Assembly: GCA_964016885.1 (NCBI GenBank)
Contig: OZ024758.1
Coordinates: 23,560,001 to 23,624,000, forward strand
Source of the DNA: Eledone cirrhosa
Taxonomy: Eukaryota
Length of the DNA: 64,000 nt
Direction: 5' to 3'
A model generated the notes under the pieces. The model had not been told where the DNA came from. It ran no database searches and was given only the letters and a program-made list of their open reading frames with translations. How positions within the stretch are numbered: the first letter of the stretch is position 1; each line of letters opens with the position of its first letter. Of the stretch, positions 118 through 41,997 are shown in pieces. A program made the translations under genes and the position numbers.

Positions 118-543
118 TACGATATTAAATAAATGGAAACTATATTTATAAAACCATATTTATTTCATTATATATATTTCAGGGATATCATATTAACAAT
201 ATGCTATGCCTTCCTCAGACAAAATACAATATAGACAGTTTTATAGATAAATAGATTTGACATACCGTACTGCCAAATCAACTTTTCAAATACAAGTCGA
301 TGTTGAACGGTATGTCAAATCTATTTATCTATAAAACTGTCTATATTGTATTTTGTCTGAGGAAGGCATAGCATATTGTTAATATGATAACCCTGAAATA
401 TATATAATGAAATAAATATGGTTTTATAAATATAGTTTCCATTTATTTAATATCGTAAATATACTCCAAATACTTGTTGAGTGCTTTTATATCAGTTATA
501 AATATTTACTAGTTGTAACCCAACAATTTAAATATAACTTTCC
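118..543. mobile_element. Penelope-like fold-back element (151-bp inverted arms 118-268 / 307-457 plus unique tail) in a (TA)n tract
   Basis: Near-perfect inverted repeat with a 38-nt spacer; each arm carries a hammerhead core; flanked by (TA)n; related copies at 4099, 9152 and 38870. Confidence 0.75.
349..414 (+). ncRNA. Minimal type-I hammerhead ribozyme motif (antisense copy at 161-226, - strand)
   Basis: TATTTTGT-CTGAGGA-AGG C ..CATATT GTT AATATG.. C CCT-GAAA-TATATA-TA^-ATGAAATA; stem I and stem II pair. Confidence 0.7.
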
Positions 544-1751: not shown

Positions 1752-3049
1752 CAAAGATAGATACATTTTATTCACAATTGTATAAATAATATTACAAATA
1801 AGAAAATGAAAAGTAAAAGAAAGGAAAAAAAAAACACCAGCAGGTAACACACGCACACGCATATATGTATTAATGGTCTGAAGAAAAGTTAAATGTCAGA
1901 TTTTTTAGAGGAGAAAAAGTTGGAAAGGCAGACATAAACACAGAGCAAATATAATCAAATATATAGATGGAAAAATTAGCTTTTAAATCACTTTAAATTC
2001 TGTGAATATATAATAACTACATCATCTAATATTTCCATTCTTTTAAAATGCTAGGATGTAACCTGAGGATTATTTGGCTGCTATTTTTTGTGGTTTGAGA
2101 TGTCCATGCAGTGGTTTCCGTCTTCGCTCTTGGCTGGAAAATGATTAATTTTTATTTTAAACATTAAAGCTACTTATTCCTTACACGTTTCAAGATAGTT
2201 ATATACACACGCGCGCACACACATATATATATATACACACACACACATATACATACATCCGTATATAGTTATTGATTGAGAGAAATATCTATTTTCATAA
2301 CACGCACAGGTAGGCAGAGAGAGACACCAACCAGCATGGTTATGTTTTATCATGTGACTAAGACACTGCTTAGACGACCATCACAACTATATTTTACATC
2401 GTTAATTGATGTAGGCTCGTCTTTCATCTCTAAACTAACTTTTCTTTAACTCTCTCTAAAATCCGATGTTAAATAAAAGAAGTACAGGAAAAGACGAGCA
2501 ATAAGCAAGTATATTGTATTGACTTGATTTTCTAGAAAGATGAATGCTTTCTATTTTATAATGCAAACTTTAACAAGTTTTGGTTCTGGATTACCACTCT
2601 CACCAACATTTTCACAGATCACTGGGCCGTGACCAACCATGCTTATACTTGAAGCAACAACCTCCAAACTGTAAACAGCCAGCAACTAGTACCATTACAA
2701 TCATAACTACACCATAATTAGTTGGTTAGTAGCTAACACCGTCCATAGATTGCATCCGAGATATGAAAAGAAAAGTCGAATCACCATAACGATTTGGAAA
2801 GTTGGTGCATACATAGTGCCGTCCGAATGAAAGTTTGAAAACACTTAAACAAAGAAACACCACTAGGCGTCCTCCTTGACACCAGGACCGCCTGTACAAT
2901 CAATCTGGTATTTATAGAGCTAGTAGTAGTACATACTATTACTGATAGTTGATAAATGACTAAAGCTGTCCAGACTCCACGTCAAACAATCGTTATCAGG
3001 ACAACCACAATCACCACTAATACTACCACCAAAGTACGATAGATTAGTC

Positions 3050-3405
3050 TGTATAGCGAGTCAGTGAAATATCGGGGCCCTGAAGCCACGATATTTAAGT
3101 AGGAGGAATATCTTGTCCTCTTTTCTCAAGCAAAAACAGTAAAAGAATCACGACGACGACCACCACAACAACCACAAAAATAAGATATATTAATTTGTAT
3201 AGCGGGTCAGTGGAATATCGGGGCCCTGAAGCCACGATATTCAAGTAGGAGGACTATCTTGTCCTCTTTAGTCAAGCAAAAACAGTAAAAAAAAAATCAC
3301 GACCACCACCACAGAAATAACATATACTAATTTGTATAGCGGGTCAGTGAAATATCGGGGCCCTGAAGCCACGATATTTAAGTAGGAGGACTATCTTGTC
3401 CTCTT
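3050..3405 (+). repeat. Three near-identical 73-nt structured units (3050-3122, 3196-3268, 3333-3405) with A/C-rich spacers, directly upstream of ATG 3431
   Basis: Unit TGTATAGCGGGTCAGTG-AAATATCG-GGGCCCTGAAGCCA-CGATATTT-AAGT-AGGAGGAC-TATCTT-GTCCTCTT; two hairpins per unit. Confidence 0.9.
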
Positions 3406-3430
3406 GGATCGAACAAAAATTAAAAGGAAA

Positions 3431-4032
3431 ATGAAGTCATTCGCTGACCAATTTACGTCGATTAAGAATCGCTACCGAGACTCGAACGTAATGTCGGTCC
3501 CTACTTACACCTCTGTCGGCGTTGGTGCTATGAGTGTGTATAAGTCAACGGTTTTACCAATTTGTTCTCAAGCAACAACAGCAGCTGCTGCTGCTGTTTG
3601 TTCTACAGAAACTTCAGACGACGACAGTCTGACAGACTTGCCAACTGGCGACTCTGTCGTCGCCATACTTCCTAATAAGAGCGACGACACTTTTGAAAAT
3701 AATCCTGCTATTAACAGCAACTACAACAACGATACACTCGTTGTTGGTGGTCTGAGTAGTGACTGCCATAATAAAAGTTTTCCAGTCCCGACTGGACTTT
3801 CAGTGTCCACAATGGGTCAGTTACAAAGTTACAACAGAAACAATAGTTTCTTATACAACAATGACAATAACAATAACACCGACAACAATAGTACACCTGC
3901 TTCCAACGTAACTATCGAAAAGCGTGCTCAAGTCTATGGCCTACCATCTTCAACATTACCGAACCATCAACACATATCTGCTCATGGATTGAATTCAAGA
4001 GAATCTTCTGTGGATAACGATTATTCTTGCAA
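3431..4032 (+). CDS. Probable first coding exon of the sorting nexin-16-like gene (S/T/N-rich, low-complexity N-terminus)
   Basis: Non-repetitive ~200-codon ORF from ATG 3431 (MKSFADQF...DNDYSC). It ends at a canonical donor AA|GTAAGT (GT at 4033-4034), phase 2. The exon at 41622 starts with one spare base (G), restoring AAG (Lys) in frame. The link to SNX16 is inferred from phase compatibility only; unseen intervening exons are possible. Confidence 0.6.
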
Positions 4033-4098
4033 GTAAGTACATATAGTTGAAGTTTACATACATACATACATATATACATATATACATATATACATATG

Positions 4099-4518
4099 TA
4101 CGATATATTAACAAATGGAAACTATATTTATAAAACCATATTTATTTCATTATACATATTTCAAGGACACCAAGTTAAATTATGGTGTGCTTTCATCAGA
4201 TAAAATATAATATAGAGCAGTTTTATAAATAAATATTGACATATATGTCAATATTTATTTATAAAACTGATCTATATTATATTTTAATGTCAATATTTAT
4301 TTATAAAACTGATCTATATTATATTTTATCTGATGAAAGCACACCATAATTTAAATTGGTGTCCTTGAAATATGTATAATGAAATAAATATGGTTTTATA
4401 AATATAGTTTCCATTTGTTAATATATCGTATTTTTACTCCAATAATTTGTTGAGTGCTTTATATCAGTTATAAAAATATTTGCTTGTTGTATCCCAACAA
4501 TTTAAAGAGAACTTCTAC
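4099..4518. mobile_element. Penelope-like fold-back element at the start of intron 1 (inverted arms spanning 4099-4430 plus tail)
   Basis: Same family as 118-543; arms nearly perfect, with a ~41-bp tandem duplication near the centre; flanked by TA-rich microsatellite. Confidence 0.75.
4322..4386 (+). ncRNA. Minimal type-I hammerhead ribozyme motif (antisense copy 4143-4207)
   Basis: TATTTTAT-CTGATGA-AAG C ACACCA TAATTTAAAT TGGTGT C CTT-GAAA-TATGTA-TA^-ATGAAATA. Confidence 0.75.
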
Positions 4519-7171: not shown

Positions 7172-7665
7172 CTAATGTATTGGTACGCGATGGGGCCCAT
7201 CCACAGCCCCGGCGGACAGAATGGAGAAGGCGTTTCCCCGTAGGATGGCAAGGGAGACGCGCTGGAAAAGCCACTCCAACTCGCGGGGCTCACACCTGCG
7301 GCTGGCCAGCTCAGCGCCTATGGTGGTGAGTAAGGAAGTAGCCCTGGGGTCGAGGACACCAGAAGTCTCCACTGCCAGGGGAACGACCGCAAACCTGTCG
7401 GAGAGCGACCGACCGGTATTTGAGGAGTTTGGCCACCTCAGCCCGACGTGCAGCAGAACCTGGGTCAGTCGCAGACTGCACCAGGTTGCGGCTGCAGAAA
7501 GTGTCGGTGCAAGTGGCATCCCAGACGAGGGGTTTGCCACCGCGGAACGGGAAGTTGGTCATGCCATCTGCCCTTTTGCCGTCCCCTCGATCCAGCCCCA
7601 CCGGCTCGAGCTGGGAAGGGAAGCCTGCAGCGTCCAAGCCATGCTTAATGGCCTCGTTGAGGGCA
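7172..7665 (-). mobile_element. 3' fragment of a CRE-like (restriction-like endonuclease) non-LTR retrotransposon, frameshifted
   Basis: GC-rich island. EPVGLDRGDGKRADGMT..LVWDATCTDT..AARRAEVAKLLKY and, in another frame, VPLAVETSG..FQRVSLAILRGNA are typical RLE-domain motifs. A second decayed fragment lies at ~36865-37030. Confidence 0.8.
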
Positions 7666-7699
7666 GCAGTGTCACTTTTGGGAGGCTCCCATACATCTC

Positions 7700-7970
7700 T
7701 TAGTTTTTCATCCTCAGTGTATACTGATTAATGTTCAGAGCCATCCTCAGCATTCTCGTGTCGCACCCATCCACTATCTGAGTGAGTTTCTTGGTCAGTG
7801 TCCAAGTCTCAGACCCGTACAGCAGCACAGACTCCACTATAGCAATGAAGAGGCGGATTTTCAGGTCCTTACGAAGGTCCGACTTCCACACCGATCTCAA
7901 GCTGTTAGAGACGCAGGGCATGGCAGCGATAATGAGGGACAGAGACCGCTGGAGAGAACTCGTCCATTCG
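7700..7970 (-). mobile_element. RTE-type LINE reverse-transcriptase C-terminal fragment (with a short inverted piece at about 7900-7965)
   Basis: KDLKIRLFIAIVESVLLYGSETWTLTKK..DTRMLRMALNI on the - strand; MRDRDRWRELV on the + strand. Confidence 0.75.
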
Positions 7971-8172
7971 GGAATTTTACCCGCCCTATATATATATATA
8001 TATGTGTGTGTGTGAGTCCCGGGTTCAATCGGGGGTAACCACAGTAAGATATATTTCTTTATTTGCCACAAGGGCGCACAAAAAAAGGGGACAATACAAT
8101 GACACATGCCGGGGATTTTACATACAGTTGTGTAAAAATATTGAAACAAACAATTATAACCACAGTAAGATA

Positions 8173-29165: not shown

Positions 29166-29935
29166 ACTGATCCAGCTGGATCCCCAAGCACGACTAGTCA
29201 AGCTCATGGATGTTATCCAACCATCTTACTTGGGGTCTACCCCCTGGGTTTCCTGCCAATTGGTTTTGCCCGTAAAATCTGTCCAGCAATTCTTTCCTGA
29301 GACATTCTAACCACATGCTCATAGTATCGGAGCTGTGATCTCTCAATTCGGAGAAGTAGTGGCTCTACCTGGATTGACTCTCTGATCTCCTGAAACATTC
29401 TAACCACATGACCATAGTATGGGAGCTGTGATCTCTCAATTCGGAGAAGTAGTGACTCTACCTGGAGTGACTCTCTGATCTCCTGAGACATTCTAACCAC
29501 ATGTCCATAGTATCGGAGCTGTGGTCTCTCAACTTGGAGAAGTAGTGGCTCTACCTGGATTGACTCTCTGATCTCCTGAAACATTCTAACCACATGACCA
29601 TAGTATTGGAGCTGTGATCTCTCAATTCGGAGAAGTAGTGGCTCTACCTGGATTGACTCTCTGATCTCCTGAAACATTCTAACCACAAGGCCATAGTATC
29701 GGAGCTGTGATCTCTCAATTTGGAGAAGTAGTGGCTCTACCTGGATTGACTCTCTGATCTCCTGAAACATTCTAACCACATGACCATAGTATGGGAGCTG
29801 TGATCTCTCAATTTGGAGAAGTAGTGGCTCTACCTGGATTGACTCTCTGATCTCCTGAGACATTCTAACTACATGCCCATAGTATCAGAGCTGTGATCTC
29901 TCGATTCGGAGAAGTATGGTTCTATCAGGAATGAC
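29165..29935 (-). mobile_element. RTE-type LINE 3' fragment with an in-frame 87-bp tandem expansion (about 7 copies)
   Basis: Repeated QEIRESIQVEPLLLRIERSQLRYYGHVVRM, then ERIAGQILRAKPIGRKPRG; related fragment at 44885-44985. Confidence 0.8.
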
Positions 29936-36303: not shown

Positions 36304-36856
36304 ATGGGCTGGTCAAAGCTTGAATGTGTTTGACCACTGATCTGCTTCATTGAAGCTGACCTAGGGTTTAACAACAAATCAATTTTTCTAGTTAATACAC
36401 AAATACTATTAACATGGGCTGGTCAAAGCTGTTATGTGTTTGATTGAAGCTGACCTAGGGTTTAACAACAAATCAATTTTTCTAGTTAATACACAAATAC
36501 TATTAACATGGGCTGGTCAAAGCTGTTATGTGTTTGATTGAAGCTGACCTAGGGTTTAACAACAAATCAATTTTTTTAGTTAATACACAAATACTATTAA
36601 CATGGGCTGGTCAAAGCTGTTATGTGTTTGATTGAAGCTGACCTAGGGTTTAACAACAAATCAATTTTTCTAGTTAATACACAAATACTATTAACATGGG
36701 CTGGTAAAAACCGCAATGTGTTTGACCAGTGGTCTGGTTGATTGAAGCTGACCTGGGGTTTTAACAATAACAAATTCATTTTCCCAGTTAATGCACAAAA
36801 ATAATATTAACATTGGACTGGTCAATGCTGGAATATGTTTGGTTGAAGCTGACCTA
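36304..36856. repeat. 94-bp minisatellite, about 6 copies
   Basis: CATGGGCTGGT recurs at 36413, 36507, 36601, 36695. Confidence 0.9.
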
Positions 36857-37975
36857 CCACCCTACTCTCCACCATAGGCGCTGAGCTGGCCAGCCGCAGG
36901 TGTGAACCCCGCGAGTGGAAATGGCTCTTCCAGCGCATCTCCCTTACCATCCTCTGTCTGGGGGAAACACCTTCTCCGTTCTGTCCACCGGGGTTGTGGG
37001 GAGGCCAGCGCGTGGGACCCCATTTGCTCACCATACAGAGAGATGGGGAGGGCGAGAGAGATGGAGGCGATGACAGTGGGAGTTTGGCTCTTCCACGTTC
37101 GGACCATACCCTCGTGGTTGTGTTCATTATGTATAGAGTTCATTCCAATAACATTTCTATAGTCAGATATACTTTTTGACACCATTGTTAGAGTGGTAAA
37201 TTGATAATATTAATGTGGGGTTGAGGAGAATAAGACTGGCTTTTCTGGAGCCAACAGTTTGGTATGATGATGGTGATGATGATGATGATGAATTGACACT
37301 TATACAAACTGAAGTGCTAATGACCCGTGTTTGGTGTAATATTACTGTGTTTTTTTTAGACTGAACTAGATCAACAAAGCATGATAGTCTTCTAAAAGCT
37401 ATGTAATATTCCAAAGCAAGGGATGTCACATTCAGATTCACAGTAGTCAGTGTGTGAATTATGTATGTGTGTGTGTGTGTATTAGTATGTGTGTGGGTGA
37501 ATTGATATGTGTGAACTATGTATTTGTGTGTATTGGTGTATTAGTGTGTGTGTGTATATATTAGTATGTGTGTGGGTGAATTGATATGTGTATATATTAG
37601 TATATTTGTGTGTGCATTAGTGTGTTTGTGTGTGTGTGTGTATCATCATCATCATTTTATGTCCGCTTTTCCCTGCTTGCAAGGGTGGGACGGGAACTGA
37701 TTCTGGCTTGATTTCTAACACCAACCTCATTTACAGTGAGTGCTGGGTGACTTTTTTGCCGTGGCACATCCACGACCACTTTGCAGTGGAATGATAGGGA
37801 CCCCAGTCCCTCTCATCTCATTTCTACAGCTGAGTAAACTGGAGCAATGTGAAATAAAGTGTCTTGCTCAAGGAAACAACACATCACCCGGTCTGAGAAT
37901 TGAACTCACAACCTTTCGATTGCAAGGCCAATGCTCTAACCACTCAGCCTTCACAATGTGTAACCAATTTCCTCC

Positions 37976-41621: not shown

Positions 41622-41997
41622 GGTGTCACCAGAACAAAGCATGGAAAAAGAATTCGAATTGGATAAAAATATAAATATTGTGAAACCTTGCAGTAGTATG
41701 AATGTATACTTAGTAGACAAAACCAAAGTGCAATATGCTGAAGGAGACTTTGATTCTGCTGAAGAGGTCATGGAAGACTCTAAATTCAGTAGTAACAAAA
41801 GAAACACTGATTGTTCAACACCTGTAAGTCCTAGTTCTGTAAATAGCAGTCGGAATTCTTTAAATTCCTTGGATGGAGATAAGGAATGTACTTCTTTAAA
41901 TGAAGAAGACAACTTATATACTTCAGCTTATTCCAATAACCCAATAACAGTTCCAATAATTGGATATGAAACTATGGAACAACGTGCCAGATTTACT
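41622..41997 (+). CDS. SNX16: Internal coding exon of sorting nexin-16-like gene, ending at the start of the PX domain
   Basis: Strong acceptor (TTTCTCTTTTTTTTTTTATCCAG|G) and donor (ACT|GTAAGT at 41998). Translation ends ...NNPITVPIIGYETMEQRARFT, matching the SNX16 motif PTILGYEVMEERAKFT|VYKI as I recall it. The next exon (VYKI...FRRYTDF) was not found in the window. Confidence 0.85.

What the first reader, a model, noticed from the sequence alone, without database searches (positions are those of the whole stretch)
3050..3405. Triplicated two-hairpin element just upstream of the start codon, with a compensatory base pair
Seen: three 73-nt cores end 25 nt before ATG 3431, while the spacers between them vary by indels. 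Hairpin 1 is AAATATCG-G-GGC-CCTGAA-GCC-A-CGATATTT; hairpin 2 is AGGAGGAC-TATCTT-GTCCTCTT. Cores 2 and 3 differ at only two positions, and these are partners in hairpin 1 (G3213-C3242 versus A3350-T3379; copy 1 has A3067-T3096). I see no ATG in 3050-3430. The unit occurs nowhere else in the window and I cannot match it to a known RNA family. Inference: a conserved structured RNA element (5' UTR regulator, small RNA gene cluster or ribozyme) amplified in tandem. Quasi-palindrome correction at the DNA level could also produce the paired change.
Basis: partly seen in the sequence, partly recalled or inferred. Interest (0 to 1): 0.75.

Follow-up and report, generated by a model that had tools for sequence, protein, structure and literature searches.

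The report
Triplicated hairpin module in SNX16 leader
An octopus-like animal has three near-identical copies of a predicted two-hairpin sequence in the transcribed leader of its sorting nexin-16 gene; they likely help control translation of that message, but the paired base change that first suggested this appears not to be fixed, and no function has been tested.

Summary
The three 73-nt cores are real (3050-3122, 3196-3268, 3333-3405) and were found only here in a 3.0-Gb genome. They lie in the transcribed leader of the octopod SNX16 gene: a run with spliced contigs covers 2300-4032 and joins exon 2 at 41622. Cores vary at 4 of 73 columns, adjacent flanks at 17 of 39, so the block looks constrained.

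The headline compensatory pair is weaker than reported. Contig break points in both the spliced and an unspliced run are reproduced only if copy 2 reads A3213 with C3242, a mismatch. G3213 is therefore probably a polymorphic allele.

No Rfam family matches; hammerhead, twister and IRE tests fail. The units fill an ATG-free zone between 12 upstream ATGs and the start codon.

Best reading (0.42): a cis-acting translation-control RNA module amplified in tandem. Rivals: neutral conversion-homogenised repeat (0.25), DNA-level element (0.22). Orthologous leaders could not be fetched, so real covariation is untested.

The parts
2300..4032 (+). First (5'-most seen) exon of SNX16: about 1,130-nt leader plus 602 nt coding; true 5' end not mapped
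   Evidence: X1 contigs 2300-3089, 3078-3220, 3214-3357, 3361-4033; the last runs on into exon-2 sequence; X1 has no contig past the donor while X2 does. Contigs are unstranded.
2336..3042 (+). Distal leader with 12 upstream ATGs (uORFs of 1-37 codons); the last uORF (2956-3042) stops 7 nt before core 1
2959..3430 (+). ATG-free zone of 472 nt holding the three units
   Evidence: 0 ATG against a mean of 5.1 in shuffles (1 of 300 with none); non-redundant 189 nt: mean 2.1, 17 of 300 with none
3050..3122 (+). Core 1: 17-nt leader, hairpin 1 (3067-3096), AAGT hinge, hairpin 2 (3101-3122); A3059 and stem-breaking A3108 differ from core 3
3123..3195 (+). Spacer 1, A/C-rich (37 A of 73), with short ACC/ACG repeats
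3196..3268 (+). Core 2: hairpin 1 (3213-3242), hairpin 2 (3247-3268); C3242 in assembly and reads
3213..3213 (+). Variable site: G in the assembly (G-C pair), A inferred in the contigs of X1 and X2 (A.C mismatch); probably a G/A polymorphism
   Evidence: 1 of 429 substitutions fits; depth bookkeeping leans to heterozygous, not decisive
3269..3332 (+). Spacer 2, A/C-rich (35 A of 64)
3333..3405 (+). Core 3: hairpin 1 (3350-3379), hairpin 2 (3384-3405)
3342..3351 (+). Core positions 10-19, complementary (9 Watson-Crick + 1 G.U) to codons 4-7 at 3440-3449; candidate helix enclosing both hairpins and the start codon
   Evidence: context- and temperature-dependent, a lead only
3406..3430 (+). A-rich 25-nt linker to the start codon (15 A), a diverged homolog of the spacer start
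3431..4032 (+). SNX16 coding exon 1 (octopod N-terminal extension, begins MKSFADQF); splice donor GT at 4033
41622..41997 (+). SNX16 coding exon 2, in frame with exon 1, runs into the start of the PX domain; 3' end inferred from a GT donor
   Evidence: a further PX exon at G000:C19:23645431-23645580

Best explanation
A 73-nt block with two predicted hairpins sits in three tandem copies in the transcribed leader of the octopod SNX16 gene, and it likely acts as a cis-acting RNA module that controls translation initiation at AUG 3431. Shown: the copies are in RNA continuous with the spliced SNX16 message, are single-locus, are much more alike than their flanks, and fill the ATG-free stretch after 12 upstream ATGs. 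Inferred: selection keeps each core because a protein or the 40S subunit recognises it. The A/C-rich spacers would keep the modules folding separately. The 25-nt A-rich linker would be the landing site, so that ribosomes blocked by the uORFs can still start at SNX16 (reinitiation or internal entry). Triplication would raise the number of binding sites. Speculative: pairing of core positions 10-19 with codons 4-7 could give an off state that hides the AUG.
For: Transcription and splicing. Start codon orthologous to Octopus and Argonauta SNX16. Core 4 of 73 variable columns against 17 of 39 in the flanks: Fisher p = 2e-6. With the block position left free, 3 of 200,000 permutations do as well. 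Toy neutral mutation-plus-conversion models gave the pattern in 11 of 12,000 runs (free conversion; at most 3 of 400 per setting) and 0 of 12,000 (match-dependent conversion). The 3' edge of conservation coincides with the last paired base of hairpin 2. Both hairpins persist in folds up to 1,160 nt, mostly P > 0.85; copy-1 hairpin 2 falls to 0.3-0.46 in the longest fold. All three stem changes sit at helix-end pairs. X1 depth shows no clear step at the units (14.1, 13.7, 11.8; copies 1+3 together about 30).
Against: The only compensatory pair appears unfixed and is a terminal pair whose loss costs only 0.3 kcal/mol. Copy 1 breaks a hairpin-2 pair. Loops and single-stranded parts are as conserved as stems, which DNA-level constraint or conversion would also give. 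Internal spacers alone give only p = 0.056 (G allele) or 0.021 (A allele). Core z-scores are matched by 7 of 113 other windows of the exon, and the minus strand folds about as well. Contigs give no strand and no start site, so the 12 uATGs may not be on most SNX16 mRNAs. The leader-CDS helix drops to P <= 0.02 in the full leader and <= 0.07 at 10-12 C, and two other exon sites pair as well. No orthologous leader could be examined.
Confidence: 0.42

Rival explanations
1. Neutral local tandem duplication of leader sequence. Gene conversion between the copies keeps the gap-free block alike, while the low-complexity flanks drift faster; the hairpins are incidental, and the A3213 form may be a conversion from copy 1 or 3.
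For: Single locus. Variation does not avoid stems (3 of 4 changes). The broken A.C form is present. Folding strength is not unusual for this exon. Internal-spacer contrast is only p = 0.02-0.06.
Against: Sharp edges on both sides, with differences in the first 3 nt outside the core. Outer copies differ at 2 of 73 core sites but 17 of 39 flank sites (p = 1e-7). Toy neutral models rarely give this (11 of 24,000 runs), though they assume uniform mutation and a simultaneous triplication.
Confidence: 0.25
2. A DNA-level regulatory module (promoter-proximal enhancer or alternative promoter) that binds transcription factors and was amplified like the TYMS enhancer repeat; it is transcribed only because it lies downstream of a start site.
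For: The whole sequence, loops included, is conserved. Both strands fold alike. Precedent: conserved Hox leaders read as IRESes proved to be promoters (PMC9456764, abstract); TSER repeats carry USF1 sites (PMC7712088, passages).
Against: No clear rise in RNA depth at the units in X1 (one run, flat contig means). The conserved block ends exactly at a predicted hairpin end. Hairpin 2 has a G.U pair on the sense strand only.
Confidence: 0.22
3. Each unit is a self-cleaving ribozyme or a small-RNA gene of a class not yet described.
For: Compact, sequence-conserved two-hairpin unit of about 140-nt period. Possible extra pairings of loop 1 with the leader or the hinge, 4 bp each. Other AI notes report unusual hammerheads in this genome (unchecked).
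Against: No Rfam match. No CUGANGA core on either strand, no C box, no IRE stem. Strict twister descriptor 0 hits in 3 of 3 copies on both strands. RNA contigs run across all three units without a drop. Single locus.
Confidence: 0.06
4. The core is kept for a near-cognate-start uORF (CTG/TTG, 17 codons, LYS.SV.YRGPEATIFK, stop TAG). In copy 3 this frame is in frame with SNX16, and hairpin 2 could promote readthrough of that stop.
For: The 17-codon frame is open in all three copies, the copies lie in three different frames, and copy 3 is in frame with ATG 3431.
Against: Two of the 3 changes in the frame alter the amino acid. No other genomic relative of the peptide (only the 3 copies). Being in frame has a 1-in-3 chance.
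Confidence: 0.05

Closest known systems
Hoxa TIE + IRES-like leaders (PMC8172242, abstract and outline seen; disputed by PMC9456764, abstract seen)
   Same: A long leader with a uORF-bearing distal part and a conserved, structured proximal part before the main AUG.
   Different: No sequence likeness tested or expected. Here the proximal module is triplicated and nothing is assayed; the Hox IRES reading itself is contested as promoter activity.
TYMS enhancer region (TSER) 28-bp tandem repeat (PMC7712088, passages seen)
   Same: Two to three imperfect tandem units just upstream of a start codon, with a SNP inside one unit.
   Different: TSER units are contiguous and act through USF1 sites on DNA. 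Here 73-nt cores with predicted hairpins are separated by diverged spacers.
Arrays of protein-binding stem-loops in UTRs: five IREs of transferrin receptor mRNA, six MAT2A hairpins (recalled, no call)
   Same: Several copies of a sequence-conserved hairpin separated by variable spacers in one UTR.
   Different: Those are 3' UTR arrays with known loop motifs; the IRE stem test fails here and Rfam gives no match.
Aplysia egg-laying hormone IRES (PMC3760813, two passages seen)
   Same: Precedent for cap-independent initiation on a cellular mRNA in a mollusc.
   Different: No sequence comparison was made; it is a precedent only.
Twister ribozyme (PMC11662667, passages and section 32 seen)
   Same: The loop-1 sequence and the following purine-rich stretch loosely recall L4 and PK2 (resemblance recalled).
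   Different: No P2, PK1 and L1 arrangement fits. That paper found no active twister among its cephalopod candidates.

Membership tests
Hammerhead ribozyme (including type-SGC order) | CUGANGA core strand | tested here: not met
   no CTGA.GA on either strand of 2990-3450; the cores read CUGAAGC
Hammerhead ribozyme (including type-SGC order) | GAAA strand with stems I-III around an NUH site | tested here: not met
   GAAA is present in copies 1 and 3 and in the A form of copy 2, but by inspection no stem II and only a 2-bp stem I can form; no Rfam hit
Twister ribozyme | N^AA, P2, PK1, P4, L4, PK2 and general-base G in order | tested here: not met
   strict descriptor 0 hits in 3 of 3 copies, both strands (type-P1 order only, no positive control run); the loose version gave 166 and 266 hits and did not discriminate; no Rfam hit
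HDV-like ribozyme | Nested double pseudoknot (P1, P1.1, P2, P3, P4) with catalytic C in J4/2 | tested here: inconclusive
   a loose P1/P3 descriptor gave 24 and 39 mostly G.U-rich partial fits; P2 and P4 not tested; no Rfam hit
Iron-responsive element | CAGUGN loop on a 5-bp stem with a bulged C | tested here: not met
   CAGTG is present but only 2 of 5 stem pairs form and there is no bulged C, in 3 of 3 copies
C/D or H/ACA snoRNA, U7-like snRNA, miRNA | Family boxes and size; Rfam model match | tested here: not met
   no match on the units; no C box; hairpins of 30 and 22 nt are too short for H/ACA or pre-miRNA (size norms recalled)
Dispersed transposon end, MITE or SINE | Many interspersed copies | tested here: not met
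   3 matches each, all at this locus (searches give lower bounds)
Cellular IRES or 5' UTR translation element | Lies within the mature mRNA leader | tested here: met
   contiguous contigs 2300-4033 in a run that shows the exon 1-exon 2 splice; strand and start site not shown
Cellular IRES or 5' UTR translation element | Structure conserved by covariation across species | not testable with these tools
   no relatives held for this genome; metagenome and viral scans gave no ortholog; within-genome evidence is one unfixed terminal pair
Cellular IRES or 5' UTR translation element | Changes protein output from RNA, with promoter and splicing artefacts excluded | not testable with these tools
   needs reporter assays

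The most novel reading that the evidence does not exclude
An octopod-specific RNA switch, amplified three times, lets ribosomes bypass twelve uORFs in the SNX16 leader and can also fold back on codons 4-7 to bury the start codon. Copy 2 catches compensatory evolution half-way: a fixed U-to-C break with its A-to-G repair still segregating.
Probability: 0.12. Interest if true: 0.68.

Novelty: new member of a known kind. Interest (0 to 1): 0.33.

Why it matters
If the module is functional RNA, it is an undescribed structured leader element in a cephalopod membrane-trafficking gene with a built-in dose series (three copies, one weakened, one polymorphic). That makes it an easy test case for how tandem amplification tunes translation. 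If G3213/A is a true polymorphism beside a fixed C3242, it is a small natural example of a compensatory intermediate. For the scan itself: a compensatory pair read from one assembly haplotype is not evidence of fixed covariation.

Tried and rejected
Rfam at E <= 10 on 3,001 and on 431 nt: nothing credible on the units. Own-genome DNA, pattern and peptide searches: only the 3 copies. Viral and metagenome pattern scans: 0. Metagenome scan with exon-1 protein: 1 of 227 candidate stretches, a 35-residue match (L019), taken as chance and not opened.

Run search: no RNA holder listed by record; I class X1 as RNA only from its splice. RAD runs X5 and X6 had no depth over the units.

Hammerhead (also as a dimer or in scrambled order), twister, IRE, snoRNA and U7-like readings were rejected (U7 resemblance recalled, present in copies 2-3 only). 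ADAR editing as the source of G3213 was set aside: the G is in the assembly, the A form is in an unspliced run, and the site ends an 8-bp stem.

Leader-CDS helix: 23 and 29 of 5,000 shuffles and 142 of 5,000 synonymous recodings pair as well; found post hoc, kept as a lead only. The X2 estimate from a 2-nt overlap was nonsensical (repeat contamination) and was dropped.

Papers: 'sorting nexin 16' + 'octopus' 0; cephalopod + conserved RNA structure + untranslated region 0; searches listed nothing on this element by title or abstract start. No supplements were read. Earlier-finding look-ups near, by sequence and by words were empty.

Full report
Context. The window is G000:C19:23560001-23624000 of a 3.0-Gb genome. 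The ORF at 3431 matches Octopus bimaculoides (51% identity) and Argonauta hians (40%) proteins with a PX domain, 2 hits among 834 candidates. Cluster members are named sorting nexin-16, and P0001 and P0002 start at the same methionine motif. The animal is therefore an octopod (inference). Exon 1 (donor GT at 4033) joins exon 2 (41622) in frame, and a PX exon lies 21 kb beyond the window.

The observation in the assembly. The cores lie at 3050, 3196 and 3333, spaced 146 and 137 nt, and are identical at 69 of 73 columns. Copy 1 differs from copy 3 at core positions 10 and 59, copy 2 at 18 and 47. Both hairpins fold as described. Four own-genome DNA or pattern searches returned 3 matches each, all here (lower bounds), so this is a local triplication, not a dispersed element.

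Transcription. Four of the 7 listed runs were laid on 1770-4085. X1, whose kind is not on record, has a 2,027-nt contig covering 3361-4033 that continues into exon 2, and no contig into the intron; X2 continues to 4049. I read X1 as spliced RNA and X2 as DNA. X1 also covers 2300-3089 (depth 14.1), 3078-3220 (13.7) and 3214-3357 (11.8), and nothing at 2264-2299 where X2 does. The 790-nt contig is unbroken, so no common splice site lies in it. The units are thus inside RNA continuous with the SNX16 message. Strand and start site are not shown by contigs. The leader would be about 1,130 nt, with 12 ATGs in 2336-2956 and none in 2959-3430. The depletion is mild once the repeat is counted once (17 of 300 shuffles with none).

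The compensatory pair. In both X1 and X2 the contigs break inside copy 2 (143 and 146 nt). A k=31 graph of the assembly predicts a single 295-nt contig there. Setting 3213 to A reproduces all four observed boundaries, and it is the only one of 429 single substitutions in 3078-3220 that does. So molecules with A3213 and C3242 exist in both runs. Depth bookkeeping puts the A form at about 5-7 (or about 9 by a coarser route) against 12-14 in X1, and about 2-6 against 9.5 in X2. This leans to a G/A heterozygote whose G branch was removed in contig building, but noise is about 20% by my estimate; a difference between animals or an assembly error is not excluded. The pair is terminal: U47C alone costs 0.3 kcal/mol and the double change gains 2.3. 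Copy 1 also loses the loop-closing pair of hairpin 2. The structural evidence from variation is therefore one unfixed terminal pair against one broken pair.

Constraint. The stronger signal is core against flank: 4 of 73 against 17 of 39 variable columns in gap-free register. Three of 200,000 permutations match this with the block position free. All three copies differ in the first bases after hairpin 2. Outer copies differ at 2 of 73 core and 17 of 39 flank sites, but internal spacers alone give p = 0.056 or 0.021. Toy neutral simulations with conversion gave the pattern in 11 of 12,000 and 0 of 12,000 runs. They assume uniform mutation and one triplication event, and the match-dependent set was nearly conversion-free, so they lower but do not exclude a neutral history. 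Fold stability is not itself unusual: cores z -2.4 to -3.3, while 7 of 113 other windows of the exon reach -3.0 or lower, 6 of them in coding sequence.

What it is not. There is no credible Rfam match, no hammerhead core, C box or IRE stem, and no strict twister fit (features taken from PMC11662667, passages and section 32). HDV-like was only partly tested. A 17-codon near-cognate frame is open in each copy, but 2 of its 3 changes are non-synonymous and it has no other relative in the genome.

A further lead. Core positions 10-19 are complementary to codons 4-7. In a 146-nt fold at 37 C the helix forms with P = 0.99 and closes a junction holding both hairpins and a small AUG hairpin. It falls to about 0.7 in longer single-unit folds, is shared by copies 2 and 3 (about 0.3 each) with three units, and is 0.02 or less in the full leader and 0.07 or less at 10-12 C. 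Two upstream sites pair as well, and 142 of 5,000 synonymous recodings do as well. It is unproven.

Mechanism. I commit to an RNA-level translation-control module (0.42): separate hairpin units on A/C-rich linkers, in an ATG-free zone behind a uORF-rich leader, ending 25 nt before the AUG. Location, single-locus status and conservation are shown; binding, direction of effect and ribosome entry are inferred. The anatomy resembles Hoxa TIE + IRES leaders (PMC8172242, abstract), but those were reinterpreted as promoters (PMC9456764, abstract), and TSER shows a DNA-level tandem analogue (PMC7712088, passages). Hence 0.22 for a DNA element and 0.25 for neutral concerted evolution. A molluscan cellular IRES precedent exists (PMC3760813, two passages).

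Novelty and verdict. Searches showed no paper on this element; the library lacks most subscription journals and no supplements were read. It is an undescribed sequence of a known kind (tandem, probably regulatory leader element), not a member of any named RNA family tested.

Noticed in passing
window 3431-4032: SNX16 here has an N-terminal extension of about 200 residues of low complexity on its own exon, found only in Octopus and Argonauta among 834 candidates; its first 46 residues are much better conserved than the rest.
   Followed up: partly
window 4033-41621: Intron 1 of SNX16 is 37.6 kb and made largely of microsatellites and repeats; the splice is seen in run X1.
   Followed up: partly
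window 2262-2310: X1 coverage begins at 2300, about 35 nt after a TATATAG run; possible start site, but the region is TA-rich and contigs cannot show starts.
   Followed up: partly
window 3548-3780: The coding part of exon 1 has windows folding at z -3 to -5, stronger than the leader cores; a CAG/CTG-rich inverted repeat lies at 3565-3610.
   Followed up: no
window 119-455 and 4085-4430: Two related long palindromic (MITE-like) elements with similar ends flank the first exon; the second gives AT-rich miRNA-model noise in Rfam.
   Followed up: no
window 29237-29863 (-): An ORF made of about five tandem copies of a 39-residue unit that resembles the C-terminal end of an RTE-type reverse transcriptase (family resemblance recalled).
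   Followed up: no
window 7172-8107: GC-richer stretch with retroelement-like ORF fragments; similar pieces near 36822-37185.
   Followed up: no
L019 2001-2090: Lone metagenome hit to 35 residues of exon 1, probably chance.
   Followed up: no
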